64,000 nucleotides of DNA from Escherichia phage LHE83. Position 1 is the stretch's first letter; every line of letters begins with the position of its first letter. The stretch is from the sequence record OQ561750, one strand, 5' to 3'. Positions 1-18,123 of the stretch are shown here, piece after piece. The translations under genes were made by a program, and so were the position numbers. The notes beneath the pieces were generated by a model that had not been told where the DNA came from, did not search any database, and worked only from the letters and a program-made list of their open reading frames with translations.

Positions 1-554
1 CTGCATTAGTTAACTCTGTCAATCCAGGGACCTATTCTAAAGAAATGCCTGAGCCTCGTTTGGTTATTCCTATTTTCAATAAGGATAAACAAATAGAAAG
101 TTTTCAAGGTCGAGCCTTGCGTAAAGATGCTCCACAAAAATATATTACAATAAAGGCTCATGACCAAGCTACAAAAATATATGGAATGGATACAGTTGAC
201 GAACGTCAGTTGGTGTGGGTAATGGAAGGTCCTATTGATTCATTATTCGTACCGAATGCAATAGCAATTACTGGCGGGTCGTTGGACTTGGCTATGGTTC
301 CATGTAAAGAAACTCGTGCCTGGGTAATGGACAATGAACCCCGCCATCCCGACACAATTAAGCGTATGCAACGATTAGTTGATGCTGGCGAAAGGGTTCT
401 ATTCTGGGACAAGGCTCCATGGCCTTCTAAAGATATAAATGATATGATTATGAAAGATAAAGCTGATATAAATGATGTACTGGCATATATGAAAGCTAAT
501 ATAGCCCAAGGTCTAATGGCTAAAATGAGACTTTCAAAATATTCTAAAATTTAG
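1..554 (+). CDS. 61: DNA primase gp61, C-terminal portion (5' end lies outside window)
   Basis: Frame open from window edge to TAG 552-554; Toprim-like segment (EGPIDSLF, ITGGSLD); sits directly upstream of 56 and soc as in T4-type genomes. Confidence 0.7.
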   Translation, partial: ALVNSVNPGTYSKEMPEPRLVIPIFNKDKQIESFQGRALRKDAPQKYITIKAHDQATKIYGMDTVDERQLVWVMEGPIDSLFVPNAIAITGGSLDLAMVPCKETRAWVMDNEPRHPDTIKRMQRLVDAGERVLFWDKAPWPSKDINDMIMKDKADINDVLAYMKANIAQGLMAKMRLSKYSKI

Positions 555-751
555 GCAGGAACTCCGCTAAAGAATCCAATTATGCTTAATACGTGTTCCA
601 TTGTAACCGCTGGTAAAATTATCCCTTGGCTAGCGGCTACAGGGACTACTAGAAGATTCCAAAGGAATACGTCTAGCGCAAGAAAACCTAACATCATTTT
701 CTTGTCTTTCTTTTCGGCCAATTTCCAGATTTGGTAAAAAATACTGCCCAT
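551..751 (-). CDS. hypothetical small membrane protein (66 aa), antisense to flanking genes
   Basis: ATG preceded by AGGAGG at 5-nt spacing on the minus strand; two hydrophobic segments; stop overlaps primase stop convergently. Confidence 0.35.
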   Translation of the reverse strand: MGSIFYQIWKLAEKKDKKMMLGFLALDVFLWNLLVVPVAASQGIILPAVTMEHVLSIIGFFSGVPA

Positions 752-780
752 GTTATCCTCCTGTTAAATTAATATTTATT

Positions 781-842: not shown

Positions 843-1364
843 ATGGCACACTTTAACGAATGCTCACAACTTATTGCTGGTGTTGATAAAGCTGAGGAAG
901 CTTATTTTAATGCTCTGATTCACGAAGATAAAGACCCTCTGCAGGTTATGCTTGATATGCAGAAATCATTACAGGTCCGTTTGGCTAAAGATAAACCTGA
1001 ATATAACCGTCATCCTGATGACTTGGCTACTGCAGGTGAAGTTGTTGATTGGTTGCGCAATCAGAAAGATTATATTGATGATGAATTCCGCGAACTTCTG
1101 ACTTCTCTTGGTGGCATGAGCAATGGCGAAAAAGATGCGAGCGCTGTATGGAAGCCTTGGAAAGCTCAACATGCTGAACGTCGTGAAACCCTGATTAACG
1201 ATTTGTCTCCTGAAGACCAGCTCGAAATTAAATTCGAAATGATTGATATTCTGCACTTTGTTCTGAATATGTTCCAAGGTCTTGGACTGACTGCTGAAGA
1301 AATCTTTAAACTGTATTACCTGAAAAATGCCGAGAACTTTGCTCGCCAGGACCGAGGTTATTAA
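843..1364 (+). CDS. 56: dCTPase/dUTPase gp56 (MazG-like nucleotide pyrophosphohydrolase)
   Basis: 173 aa; N-terminus MAHFNEC and acidic EExxE-type segment as recalled for T4 gp56; synteny 61-56-soc; SD AAGGAAAA. Confidence 0.8.
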   Translation: MAHFNECSQLIAGVDKAEEAYFNALIHEDKDPLQVMLDMQKSLQVRLAKDKPEYNRHPDDLATAGEVVDWLRNQKDYIDDEFRELLTSLGGMSNGEKDASAVWKPWKAQHAERRETLINDLSPEDQLEIKFEMIDILHFVLNMFQGLGLTAEEIFKLYYLKNAENFARQDRGY

Positions 1365-1366
1365 GT

Positions 1367-1374
1367 TATAAATA
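1367..1374 (+). promoter_or_regulatory. late promoter TATAAATA for soc
   Basis: Exact TATAAATA 32 nt upstream of soc ATG. Confidence 0.6.
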
Positions 1375-1405: not shown

Positions 1406-1639
1406 ATGGGTGGTTTCGTTAATATTAAAACCTTTACGCATCCGGCTGGTGAAGGTAAAGAAGTTAAAGGTGTTGAAGTATCTGTCCCGTTTGAAATCTA
1501 TTCAAACGAGCATCGTATTGCGAATGCACACTATCAGACATTTCCTTCTGAAAAGGCGGCATACACTACTGTAGTAACTGATGCAGCCGATTGGCGAACT
1601 AAGAACGCGGCGATGTTTACGCCTACCCCAGTAGTTTAA
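1406..1639 (+). CDS. soc: small outer capsid protein Soc
   Basis: 77 aa; core YVNIKTF...AHYQTFPSEKAAY matches T4 Soc as recalled; late promoter upstream, terminator downstream. Confidence 0.9.
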   Translation: MGGFVNIKTFTHPAGEGKEVKGVEVSVPFEIYSNEHRIANAHYQTFPSEKAAYTTVVTDAADWRTKNAAMFTPTPVV

Positions 1640-17315: not shown

Positions 17316-17792
17316 ATGAAGGTCAAGATTAAGGATACCGTATTGTATTCCTTAAGTCAAGACCCGTCCCAAGATAAGAAAGAAGTATTGACTCGGTGTG
17401 TCATTGCAACGTACGCCGAGTACATGGTTGCAGATTGGTTGAAAGGATATGTTAACAGTGGTCTGGAAGACCATGACGACCCTTATACCTATGCATGGGA
17501 TGTTTTAGCTCATCCTATGTACTGTGGACTACGCGTAGAGGTCAAGACCCATCAGTCGGATTCTAAGTGGATTTCCTGCACTACAGGATACTCCGGTGAC
17601 TTCCCTTATGGAACAGGGATTAACCTGGGCCCGCTCTTGAATCATAAAGTTGCAGACTGTATAATTATATTCGACACTTCAGTAAATGAGGCAGGCGACG
17701 TCCTGTTCACTCCTAAGTTCTCTGGCGACAGAGAAGCCATCAAAAAACTAGTCCGTAAGAGTAATTTCAACGGCTGGTATCTCGCCTTATAA
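17316..17792 (+). CDS. hypothetical protein (158 aa); start uncertain
   Basis: First ATG downstream of upstream stop; track ORF extends to 17211 overlapping previous gene. Confidence 0.4.
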   Translation: MKVKIKDTVLYSLSQDPSQDKKEVLTRCVIATYAEYMVADWLKGYVNSGLEDHDDPYTYAWDVLAHPMYCGLRVEVKTHQSDSKWISCTTGYSGDFPYGTGINLGPLLNHKVADCIIIFDTSVNEAGDVLFTPKFSGDREAIKKLVRKSNFNGWYLAL

Positions 17793-17807
17793 ATTTTTTA
17801 AATAAGT

Positions 17808-17837
17808 GTTTACATACACCAAGGATGGTGTTACTAT
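17808..17837 (+). promoter_or_regulatory. early promoter (GTTTAC, 18 bp, TACTAT, CTTCCTATCAAC)
   Basis: Conserved promoter block. Confidence 0.5.
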
Positions 17838-17865
17838 CTTCCTATCAACTTGAGAGGAAAACAAA

Positions 17866-18123
17866 ATGAAATTCTATTACGCCAAACATAAAATTACCCG
17901 TGAGTTTGTATCGTTTTCAACCTTTTCAGATGAAGAAGACTTTTGCATCACTGGTCTGGATTTATCTAAATATGAAACCGACCAGCCTTATTTGACCACT
18001 CATGACGAGATTCAACGTTTGGTGAACGGTGAGCTAAATAATTCTTACTGCACTCAAATTTACCCTGCTTTGAAAAAAGCTATCAATGCTAATCAGATTG
18101 AAATCATTGAGGTGGAATTGTGA
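17866..18123 (+). CDS. hypothetical protein (85 aa), paralogue of next ORF
   Basis: Shares N-terminal YYAKHK.T and C-terminal IEI.EV motifs with 18120-18386. Confidence 0.5.
   Translation: MKFYYAKHKITREFVSFSTFSDEEDFCITGLDLSKYETDQPYLTTHDEIQRLVNGELNNSYCTQIYPALKKAINANQIEIIEVEL

What the first reader, a model, noticed from the sequence alone, without database searches (positions are those of the whole stretch)
551..751. Antisense small membrane-protein gene between primase and gene 56
On the minus strand a 66-codon ORF starts with ATG preceded by AGGAGG at ideal spacing, encodes two hydrophobic segments, and ends with a stop codon overlapping the primase stop convergently. All neighbouring genes run the other way. 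Small membrane proteins in T-even early regions include superinfection-exclusion and immunity functions, so this could be such a factor or a regulator acting by convergent transcription. I do not recall an equivalent gene at this position in T4.
Basis: seen in the sequence. Interest (0 to 1): 0.4.

Follow-up and report, generated by a model that had tools for sequence, protein, structure and literature searches.

The report
Conserved small late membrane-protein gene
The antisense 66-codon reading frame is a real, strongly conserved gene for a small membrane protein found beside the primase gene in T4-type phages of enteric bacteria, T4 included; relatives already annotate it as a hypothetical protein and its function is still unknown.

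Summary
Window 551..751 (-) is a 66-codon ATG ORF with AGGAGG 5 nt upstream. Its TAA stop (553..551) overlaps the primase TAG stop (552..554).

It is a real gene. Only this frame stays open in all orthologues, differences concentrate at third codon positions, and dN/dS is 0.03-0.19 in all but one measurable pair.

It is not new. The window is a Dhakavirus 99% identical to phage QL01, which annotates the identical protein as hypothetical. The protein matches PHROG family phrog_2024 (unknown function) over its full length.

T4 carries a homologous 66-codon ORF at the same convergent position (NC_000866 17738..17938). That record does not annotate it; the T4T record calls it dam.1.

The family has two paralogue types, A and B, which sit in tandem in some phages. 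Every phage examined keeps at least one intact copy.

A late-promoter-like NATAAATA lies 13-21 nt before the start codon in 11 of 12 lineages. The orientation also fits late transcription.

The protein has one clear transmembrane helix, probably N-in/C-out, with invariant W-N...P...P. The second hydrophobic segment is too short to span a membrane.

Function is unknown. Distant homologues in siphovirus-type prophages lie near an endolysin and a DUF2730-like protein, which weakly suggests a lysis or envelope role. Early superinfection exclusion and regulation by convergent transcription are less likely.

The parts
551..751 (-). Coding sequence of the 66-aa small membrane protein (phrog_2024; type-B orthologue of T4 Dam.1)
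   Evidence: ORF. phrog_2024 E=5.8e-28 over the full length. Identical protein annotated in QL01 as YP_009202759.1. dN/dS 0.03-0.19 with a strong third-position bias. Only stop-free frame in all orthologues.
698..751 (-). Codons 1-18: N-terminal amphipathic helix plus basic cluster (KKDKK), predicted to be cytoplasmic
   Evidence: AlphaFold2 helix 3-11. Net charge +3 in residues 1-20, and +5 to +7 in homologues. The topology is inferred from the positive-inside rule.
629..697 (-). Codons 19-41: the single transmembrane helix, carrying invariant W31, N32 and P37
   Evidence: Kyte-Doolittle 19-mer scores of 1.8-2.05. Part of AlphaFold2 helix 14-41, pLDDT 81-86. Invariant columns in the 29-sequence alignment A2.
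554..628 (-). Codons 42-66: conserved G43...P47.V49 loop and short C-terminal amphipathic helix (51-62), predicted to be periplasmic or interfacial
   Evidence: The helix is too short (12 residues) and too polar (E52, H53) to be a second membrane span.
757..762 (-). Shine-Dalgarno AGGAGG, 5 nt before the ATG
   Evidence: Read directly from the sequence. GGAG-type sites are conserved before the start codon in all homologues.
773..780 (-). T4-type late-promoter-like box AATAAATA (TATAAATA with A at -13). The predicted transcription start is near 767, giving a 5' UTR of about 16 nt.
   Evidence: NATAAATA lies 13-21 nt before the ATG in 11 of 12 lineages, with the exact TATAAATA in Marfa, Q7622 and Kosakonia 305; only 13 NATAAATA occur in the whole 64-kb window, and 7 of them precede the SD+ATG of ORFs, including the late gene soc. 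The A(-13) variant occurs at 9 of 50 listed T4 late promoters (PMC2988020). Promoter activity itself is inferred and not shown.
551..554 (.). 4-nt convergent overlap of the two ORFs (TAA 553..551 on the minus strand; primase TAG 552..554 on the plus strand)
   Evidence: The same 4-nt overlap occurs in T4, Marfa, VR26, p000v, Kosakonia 305, pzk-kv8, PEi20 and QL01. The overlap is not obligatory: Bp7 has a homing endonuclease between the two genes, and SEA1 has a 2-nt gap.
45..554 (+). Context: 3' part of the DNA primase gene (gp61), convergent with the ORF
   Evidence: phrog_47 E=5.4e-58; annotated in QL01 and JS98.
843..1364 (+). Context: gene 56 (dCTPase), divergent from the ORF
   Evidence: phrog_173 E=1.3e-46, Pfam dUTPase_2; annotation.

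Best explanation
Window 551..751 (-) is a genuine protein-coding gene. It is the Dhakavirus (type-B) member of a small-protein family (PHROG phrog_2024; Dam.1 in phage T4T). This family sits convergent with the 3' end of the primase gene in every T4-type genus checked among phages of Enterobacterales.

Shown: the reading frame is under strong purifying selection; the position and orientation are conserved down to about 25% identity; at least one intact copy is kept in every phage examined.

Inferred with good support: the gene is transcribed late, from a gp55-type late promoter (AATAAATA at 780..773), as a short monocistronic message. After the stop codon this message runs antisense into the primase gene.

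Inferred from sequence and the model: the product is a single-pass inner-membrane protein. It has a basic amphipathic N-terminus in the cytoplasm, one transmembrane helix with an invariant intramembrane Trp-Asn and a Pro kink, and a short Pro-rich C-terminal tail on the periplasmic side.

Most likely function, a tentative inference at about 0.3: it acts at the cell envelope late in infection as an accessory of the lysis or lysis-timing machinery. The polar Asn in the helix would mediate self-association or docking onto another membrane protein. The basis is that its only relatives outside T4-type phages lie in the tail-end/lysis neighbourhood of temperate siphovirus-type prophages.
For: Coding: only this frame is open in all orthologues. 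Third-position differences are 35-44 of 66 codons, and dN/dS is 0.03-0.19 in all but one measurable pair.

Family: phrog_2024 is matched at E=5.8e-28 by the window protein and at 4.6e-31 by the T4 ORF. The motif LWN(F/L)xxxPxAxxxGxxxPxVT is shared.

Synteny, convergent with primase: Dhakavirus, Marfavirus, Gaprivervirus, Kanagawavirus, Mosugukvirus, Gelderlandvirus, Tequatrovirus, Mosigvirus and a metagenomic T4-like contig.

Redundant paralogues: types A and B are in tandem in VR26. B has decayed in SP18, RZ and NC-G while A stays intact.

Late expression: NATAAATA lies 13-21 nt before the ATG in 11 of 12 lineages, although the rest of the intergenic sequence is not conserved. The motif is rare in the window (13 copies) and 7 of the 13 lie 18-38 nt before gene starts, including soc. 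The chance of finding it at the right place is about 3.6% per sequence. [quoted passage not shown]

Membrane protein: hydropathy; AlphaFold2 helices 3-11, 14-41 and 51-62, mean pLDDT 74.6.

Lysis association: seven distinct loci carrying distant homologues (P0131 hits phrog_2024 at 1.3e-9) were examined. Five of them (L033, L035, L037/L038, L040, L043/L044) have a PF00959 lysozyme called within about 3.5 kb. All seven have an 81-95 aa protein with an N-terminal TM segment and a coiled coil nearby; PGAP names this protein 'DUF2730 family', the family of the phage Mu releasin. The E. coli EC28 prophage has no other annotated holin.
Against: No transcript, protein or phenotype data exist for any member. 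No paper mentions dam.1. The T4 multi-omics study counted only NC_000866.4 features, which omit this ORF.

The late promoter is a consensus match only. It deviates at its first base in most lineages and is a two-base variant (ATTAAATA) in SEA1. In PM2 and Kosakonia 305 the predicted leader would be only about 8-10 nt.

The lysis link is guilt by association in distant relatives. Unrelated genes (endonuclease VII/GIY-YIG, a ~180-aa and a ~108-aa protein) lie in between. The DUF2730 Pfam score is below threshold (22.3 against 24.9 bits).

In T4-type phages the gene is nowhere near e, t, rI or the spanin genes, and T4 lysis is regarded as genetically accounted for without it.

The protein lacks the charged C-terminal tail typical of holins and hits no holin family. 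The fold search returned only family members.
Confidence: 0.6

Rival explanations
1. Superinfection-exclusion or immunity factor. The small inner-membrane protein would block DNA entry or envelope penetration by secondary phages, as T4 Imm does, or would protect progeny.
For: It is a small inner-membrane protein. The family is so far seen only in phages and prophages of Enterobacterales, which fits an interaction with a host-specific envelope component. In prophages the homologue is the last gene before the attachment site, next to variable defence-like genes such as DUF3800 and RelA_SpoT.
Against: There is no similarity to the Imm or Spackle families or to any PADLOC model. The orientation and NATAAATA box point to late expression, whereas in T4 all early and middle transcripts run the other way. 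In prophages the gene is translationally coupled to, or co-oriented with, late and structural genes rather than having its own promoter.
Confidence: 0.15
2. The locus acts mainly at the RNA level. Convergent or antisense transcription across the primase 3' end would down-regulate primase, or terminate its transcript, late in infection, and the ORF would be incidental.
For: The 4-nt stop-to-stop overlap with primase is widely conserved. No intrinsic terminator is predicted on either strand, so a late transcript would run antisense into primase.
Against: Synonymous sites are saturated between genera while the amino-acid sequence is kept, so selection acts on the protein and not on the nucleotide sequence. 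In Bp7 a homing-endonuclease gene separates the ORF from primase and the ORF is intact. SEA1 and the L030 contig have no overlap. The region shows no notable RNA structure (z = -1.57) and no Rfam match. An antisense side-effect cannot be excluded.
Confidence: 0.07
3. A late membrane protein with a non-lysis role, for example a membrane anchor or chaperone for head or tail assembly on the inner membrane, or a modulator of a host membrane protein.
For: Late timing and membrane location fit T4 prohead assembly on the inner membrane (established T4 biology, from my own knowledge). In siphovirus-type relatives the gene clusters with tail-end genes, including a ~180-aa protein weakly similar to a 'minor tail protein' (phrog_1924, E=6.8e-8).
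Against: No homology or direct evidence supports it. The gene is absent from the distant T4-type lineages so far sampled by the exhaustive search: only 19 clusters at 50% identity were found. A core assembly factor would be expected to be more widespread.
Confidence: 0.18

Closest known systems
Hypothetical protein YP_009202759.1 of Escherichia phage QL01 (also WG01, vB_EcoM-E33, LQ5) - Dhakavirus orthologues
   Same: 100% identical protein at the same position and orientation between primase and gene 56. The flanking DNA is 99% identical.
   Different: Nothing differs. In the type phage JS98, whose protein matches at 98.5% (residues 1-65), the ORF is present but not annotated.
T4 Dam.1 (ADJ39749.1 in phage T4T; unannotated ORF at NC_000866 17738..17938) - type-A paralogue, PHROG phrog_2024
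   Same: It has the same length (66 aa) and the same convergent 4-nt overlap with gene 61. It has the same AGGAGG site and NATAAATA box, belongs to the same PHROG, and shares the invariant W31/N32/P37/P47 and the predicted architecture.
   Different: Overall identity is only about 20% (40% over the 25-residue core). The N-terminus differs (MVQKLMALVNAIKGNKK against MGSIFYQIWKLAEKKDKK). In T4 the dam gene lies between this ORF and gene 56. Types A and B coexist in tandem in Gaprivervirus, so they are paralogues rather than simple orthologues.
T4 Imm and Sp (superinfection immunity and spackle)
   Same: They are small envelope-located proteins of T-even phages, encoded in the same general early region.
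   Different: There is no sequence relationship (no Pfam hit at E<=1). Imm and Sp are transcribed early on the other strand. Sp is a secreted periplasmic protein with a signal peptide and lies upstream of primase.
Phage holins and the phage Mu releasin (gp25, DUF2730)
   Same: They are small phage-encoded inner-membrane proteins made late. Distant homologues of this family lie beside a DUF2730-like protein, and in five of the seven loci examined a cytoplasmic-type lysozyme is also called nearby, in prophages without any other annotated holin.
   Different: There are no matches to holin or DUF2730 models. The charged domain is N-terminal, not C-terminal. In T4-type phages the gene is unlinked to the lysis genes. 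No lytic activity has been tested.

Membership tests
PHROG phrog_2024 / T4 Dam.1 small-protein family | Full-length significant match to the family profile | tested here: met
   E=5.8e-28, residues 1-64 against profile positions 1-64 of 65. The T4 ORF scores 4.6e-31.
PHROG phrog_2024 / T4 Dam.1 small-protein family | Invariant core W-N-x4-P-x9-P, with near-invariant A39/G43/V49, in a protein of about 50-82 aa | tested here: met
   W31, N32, P37 and P47 are invariant in the 29-sequence alignment A2. G43, V49 and G63 are invariant in alignment A1.
PHROG phrog_2024 / T4 Dam.1 small-protein family | Position: convergent with the 3' end of primase gene 61, between 61 and 56, in T4-type genomes | tested here: met
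   Window and 15 relatives across 8 genera plus a metagenomic contig.
T4 late genes (gp55/gp33/gp45-dependent) | TATAAATA-type box about one helical turn upstream of the transcription start, with no -35 element | tested here: met
   AATAAATA at 780..773, 21 nt before the ATG. It is conserved as NATAAATA in 11 of 12 lineages. The A(-13) variant is documented in PMC2988020.
T4 late genes (gp55/gp33/gp45-dependent) | Transcript appears late and depends on genes 33, 55 and DNA replication | not testable with these tools
   No strand-specific expression data were accessible. The TSS table of the dRNA-seq preprint is not held.
T4 Imm (Imm_superinfect) / Spackle (T4_Spackle) | Sequence membership in the Pfam family | tested here: not met
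   The 66-aa protein has no Pfam-A family at E<=1.
T4 Imm (Imm_superinfect) / Spackle (T4_Spackle) | Blocks superinfecting phage DNA entry or gp5 lysozyme | not testable with these tools
   This needs a phage genetics or plating assay.
Holins | Small late membrane protein with at least one transmembrane domain | tested here: met
   One transmembrane helix at about residues 19-41; late-type promoter.
Holins | Highly charged hydrophilic C-terminal tail | tested here: not met
   The C-terminal 25 residues have net charge -1 and are hydrophobic. The charged cluster is N-terminal.
Holins | Gene adjacent to the endolysin or in a lysis cassette | tested here: inconclusive
   Not met in the window or in any T4-type phage, where the neighbours are primase and dCTPase. 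Distant homologues lie near a DUF2730-like gene in all seven loci examined and near a lysozyme gene in five of them, but with other genes in between.
Holins | Match to a known holin family, or membrane-permeabilising activity | tested here: not met
   No Pfam, NCBIfam or PHROG holin hit. One UniProt 'Holin' label, on the OE5505 copy, is an unsupported name. Activity is not testable here.
cis-antisense RNA regulator | Conservation at the nucleotide or structure level rather than the protein level | tested here: not met
   Synonymous sites are saturated while the protein is kept. Folding z-score is -1.57 and there is no Rfam hit.

The most novel reading that the evidence does not exclude
A small late inner-membrane protein is conserved in all eight genera of T-even-type phages of enteric bacteria examined. 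It is overlooked in the T4 reference annotation and is therefore invisible to T4 omics and knock-down screens. It could be an unrecognised component of the lysis or lysis-inhibition apparatus, or a holin-like effector shared with the DUF2730/lysozyme lysis modules of temperate siphoviruses.
Probability: 0.25. Interest if true: 0.6.

Novelty: already known. Interest (0 to 1): 0.3.

Why it matters
As a sequence feature the ORF is ordinary: a conserved hypothetical gene that the nearest relatives already annotate. Three points give it modest value.

1. The same gene exists in T4 itself but is absent from the reference record NC_000866. Studies that count only annotated features, such as the T4 transcriptome/proteome study PMC9697503, cannot have seen it. 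RBS-targeted knock-down libraries built from annotated CDSs would also miss it if they relied on that annotation.

2. It is one of the few genes in this early region read in the late direction. It is kept under strong purifying selection in all eight T4-type genera checked, with paralogue back-up, so it probably matters for fitness.

3. Its only outside relatives sit in poorly understood lysis regions of prophages that lack an annotated holin.

A simple T4 knockout could therefore assign a function to a conserved protein in the best-studied phage.

Tried and rejected
- Pfam, NCBIfam, PADLOC and PDB sequence searches gave no hit for the window protein, the T4 protein or the prophage homologues.
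- A Foldseek search of the AlphaFold2 model against BFVD returned only family members and noise.
- Rfam and RNA folding of the region found nothing.
- The sigma-70 promoter and terminator scan found only weak 9/12 matches at background frequency and no terminator.
- The overlapping + strand ORF 582..737 (51 aa) was rejected. It loses its start codon in Marfa, pzk-kv8 and L023, and gains a stop in Bp7.
- The idea of a holin-like dual start at M19/M20 was rejected from the alignment, because those Met residues are not conserved.
- Literature searches for dam.1, T4 Ribo-seq and small ORFs, and T4 antisense or late TSSs found no mention of this gene. The dRNA-seq TSS table of preprint 10.1101/2024.04.04.588121 is not held. 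Miller et al. 2003 is not held.
- Two scans of the species-representative genome collection for prophage homologues found nothing.
- The profile scan of viral contigs failed for lack of a conserved stretch. The single-protein scan gave only 9 loci.

Full report
**Observation.** The window begins inside the DNA primase gene of a T4-type phage. Bases 1-1700 are 99% identical to Escherichia phage QL01 and 93-97% identical to other members of the genus Dhakavirus, the JS98 group. On the minus strand, 551..751 is a 66-codon ORF that starts with ATG at 751..749. AGGAGG lies at 762..757, followed by a 5-nt spacer. The TAA stop at 553..551 overlaps the primase TAG at 552..554, so the two reading frames converge with a 4-nt overlap. 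The neighbouring genes are all on the + strand: primase 45..554, gene 56 dCTPase 843..1364, soc 1406..1639, and then mrh.2 and the rest. The description is therefore correct, with one exception. Only one segment (about residues 19-41) is long and hydrophobic enough to span a membrane. The second hydrophobic stretch is a 12-residue helix (51-62) that contains Glu and His.

**Is it a gene?** Yes. I compared eight to eleven orthologues that are 70-100% identical at the protein level. This frame is the only one of the six with no stop codon in every sequence. Between genera, 35-44 of the 66 third codon positions differ, against 4-17 first or second positions. Where dS is not saturated, dN/dS is 0.03-0.19, with a single small-count pair at 0.41. 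The overlapping + strand ORF 582..737 is spurious, because it loses its start or gains a stop in relatives. No Rfam family matches the region, and its RNA folding energy is unremarkable at z = -1.57.

**What family is it?** The protein matches PHROG phrog_2024 ('unknown function') over its full length, E = 5.8e-28. It matches nothing in Pfam, NCBIfam, PADLOC or the PDB. The identical protein is already annotated as a hypothetical protein in QL01 (YP_009202759.1), and IME540 annotates a near-identical one. The type phage JS98 has the ORF but does not annotate it.

tblastn finds the protein in 121 phage records:
- Dhakavirus, 89-100% identity
- Marfavirus and other Klebsiella phages, about 75-80%
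- Gaprivervirus, about 68-70%
- Kanagawavirus, 41-61%
- Mosugukvirus, 59%
- Gelderlandvirus, 59%

In every locus inspected it lies next to, and convergent with, the primase gene.

**T4 has it too.** In T4 the order in the direction of early transcription is 41, dmd, 61.4, sp, 61.2, 61.1, 61, dam, 56, segF, soc. About 310 bp between gene 61 and dam carry no annotation in NC_000866. That gap holds a 66-codon ORF at record positions 17738..17938 on the + strand, with an AGGAGG site. It converges on gene 61 with the same 4-nt overlap. Its product matches phrog_2024 at E = 4.6e-31 and shares the core LWNFxxxPVAxxxGxxxPxVT with the window protein. The T4T record names it dam.1. It is annotated as a hypothetical protein in most of the 698 Tequatrovirus, Mosigvirus and related records that carry it.

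The family therefore has two paralogue types: A (T4 and RB69-like) and B (JS98-like, as in this window). Gaprivervirus VR26 has A and B in tandem. In SP18 and RZ copy B is truncated or frameshifted while A is intact. In the Dhakavirus NC-G copy B is frameshifted and an intact A follows it. Every phage I examined keeps at least one intact copy. This fits two redundant paralogues with a selected function.

**How far does the family reach?** A profile search of 5.8 billion proteins found 117 clusters at 90% identity. Nearly all lie on contigs of about 170 kb, all lack a Pfam domain, and those that carry a source name are called 'hypothetical' or carry evidently wrong names ('DNA packaging ATPase', 'dCTP pyrophosphatase', 'Holin'). 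An exhaustive HMMER scan of 1.8 billion representatives found only 19 clusters at 50% identity. One distant member (P0121, about 25% identical) is again between gene 56 and primase, convergent, in a metagenomic T4-like contig.

The remaining distant members are in a different kind of element: siphovirus-type contigs and prophages of Enterobacteriaceae with lambda-J-like tail tips and serine recombinases. In these elements the homologue (P0131 hits phrog_2024 at 1.3e-9) sits in a consistent neighbourhood.
- In five of the seven distinct loci a cytoplasmic-type T4 lysozyme (PF00959) is called within about 3.5 kb.
- All seven loci have an 81-95 aa protein with an N-terminal transmembrane segment and a coiled coil close by.
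- The homologue often lies directly downstream of an endonuclease VII-like or GIY-YIG gene.

PGAP names the TM/coiled-coil protein 'DUF2730 family protein'. The Pfam score is just under threshold, 22.3 against 24.9 bits. From my own knowledge, DUF2730 is the family of the phage Mu gp25 'releasin'. In E. coli EC28 the 32-kb prophage inserted in yegD has no other annotated holin or spanin, and the homologue is its last gene. In other loci the next genes are defence-like: DUF3800 and RelA_SpoT.

**Expression.** On the ORF strand an AATAAATA box lies at 780..773, 21 nt before the ATG. In 11 of 12 independent lineages a NATAAATA box lies 13-21 nt before the start codon. It is the exact TATAAATA in Marfa, Q7622 and Kosakonia 305, GATAAATA in T4, and the TA-to-AT variant in SEA1. 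The surrounding intergenic sequence is not otherwise conserved.

NATAAATA occurs only 13 times on both strands of the 64-kb window. Seven of those lie 18-38 nt before the SD+ATG of an ORF, including the known late gene soc and this ORF. The chance of ATAAATA at the right place in a shuffled intergenic region is about 3.6%. The Geiduschek and Kassavetis review (PMC2988020) makes two relevant statements. First, 32 of the 50 listed T4 late promoters are perfect and nine have A at -13, exactly the window's variant. Second, all early and middle T4 transcripts share one polarity while late transcripts have either. This ORF has the opposite polarity to the early genes around it, so it should be a late gene.

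This remains an inference. I found no expression data. No paper mentions dam.1. The TSS table of a T4 dRNA-seq preprint is not held. The T4 transcriptome/proteome study quantified only NC_000866.4 features, which omit the ORF. No terminator is predicted, so the late transcript probably runs antisense into primase.

**The protein.** AlphaFold2, run with a 29-sequence alignment, gives helices 3-11, 14-41 and 51-62, with mean pLDDT 74.6 and 81-86 over the long helix. The N-terminal 20 residues carry net charge +3, and +5 to +7 in homologues. The C-terminal part is neutral to acidic. By the positive-inside rule this gives an N-in/C-out single-pass protein. W31, N32, P37 and P47 are invariant, and A39, G43 and V49 are nearly so. 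An invariant Asn in the middle of a membrane helix is a classic driver of helix-helix association (from my own knowledge). I therefore infer that the protein self-associates or docks on a partner.

**Mechanism.** I am confident of the following: this is a real, conserved gene for a small inner-membrane protein, probably expressed late. Its role is unknown. My leading guess, at about 0.3, is a late envelope or lysis-associated accessory, based on the prophage neighbourhoods. Three things count against it. The gene is unlinked to the lysis genes in T4-type phages. The protein lacks a holin-like charged C-terminus. It matches no holin model.

Superinfection exclusion (about 0.15) is not excluded, but it fits poorly with late timing and with the lack of similarity to Imm and Sp. 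A purely RNA-level role by convergent transcription (about 0.07) is contradicted by protein-level selection. It is also contradicted by Bp7, where a homing-endonuclease gene separates the intact ORF from primase. A non-lysis membrane role such as assembly or host modulation (about 0.18) remains open.

**Novelty and verdict.** The feature is real but already known as a predicted gene. It is annotated in the nearest relatives, catalogued as phrog_2024 and named dam.1 in T4T. What remains of interest is that a conserved, selected, probably late membrane protein of T-even phages, T4 included, has no known function and is missing from the T4 reference annotation. I score interest at 0.3.

Noticed in passing
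L009 3239..3439 (= NC_000866.4 17738..17938, + strand): The T4 reference record leaves about 310 bp between gene 61 and dam unannotated. That gap contains an intact 66-codon phrog_2024 ORF with an AGGAGG site and a GATAAATA box. The T4T record (HM137666) annotates it as dam.1.
   Followed up: yes
L005 1295..1701 (VR26); L012 1311..1617 (SP18); L013 1249..1626 (RZ); L029 1490..1893 (NC-G): Types A and B of the family occur in tandem in Gaprivervirus and in some Dhakavirus. Copy B is truncated in SP18 and frameshifted in RZ and NC-G, while copy A stays intact. The gene order is A-B in Gaprivervirus but B-A in NC-G.
   Followed up: partly
L026 1708..2463 (Bp7); L013 1626..2375 (RZ); L010 523..1173 (Kosakonia 305); hits H22, H24, H28-H37: The primase-to-gene-56 interval is a hot spot for homing-endonuclease insertions (mobE, segF-like, HNH). 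These lie between primase and the small ORF, or between the ORF and gene 56. In the siphovirus-type relatives the homologue also lies directly after an endonuclease VII-like or GIY-YIG gene, sometimes with overlapping stop and start codons.
   Followed up: partly
L046 13770..45512 (E. coli EC28, NZ_CP049101.1 1879769..1911511): A degraded prophage of about 32 kb splits yegD. It runs from a serine recombinase to the phrog_2024 homologue as its last gene. Its only recognisable lysis genes are a DUF2730-family protein and a T4-type lysozyme. It is present in 25 of 5426 complete E. coli genomes.
   Followed up: partly
L037 5269..6378; L039 325..1383: In related prophage ends the gene after the phrog_2024 homologue varies and looks defence-like: DUF3800 in one locus and a RelA_SpoT-domain protein in another, each followed by a DUF2188 gene.
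   Followed up: no
L033 4249..5123; L036 4210..5082; L037 2627..3539; L043 6980..7887: A conserved pair of unknown proteins travels with the phrog_2024 homologue, the DUF2730-like gene and (where present) the lysozyme gene in the siphovirus-type elements. One is about 180-196 aa and very basic, weakly similar to phrog_1924 'minor tail protein'. The other is about 105-109 aa. The gene order is shuffled between loci.
   Followed up: no
(VAC36, UPEC01, SAKp28, CGG4-1/SEA1 UniRef, OE5505): Several database records give this small protein evidently wrong names ('DNA packaging ATPase', 'dCTP pyrophosphatase') or an unsupported one ('Holin').
   Followed up: no
window 1367..1374 (+): An exact TATAAATA lies 31 nt before the soc start codon at 1406. 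This is the expected late promoter of soc and served as an internal positive control for the motif scan.
   Followed up: yes
L004 1191..1472 (Marfa); L011 1150..1443 (PEi20); L010 1173..1457: In Marfavirus and Kanagawavirus a small (93-97 aa) gene lies divergently next to the small ORF; Marfa and PEi20 annotate it as an extra MazG-like 'nucleoside triphosphate pyrophosphohydrolase'. In T4 the dam gene occupies that place. The segment between the ORF and gene 56 is variable, while the junction between the ORF and primase is fixed.
   Followed up: no
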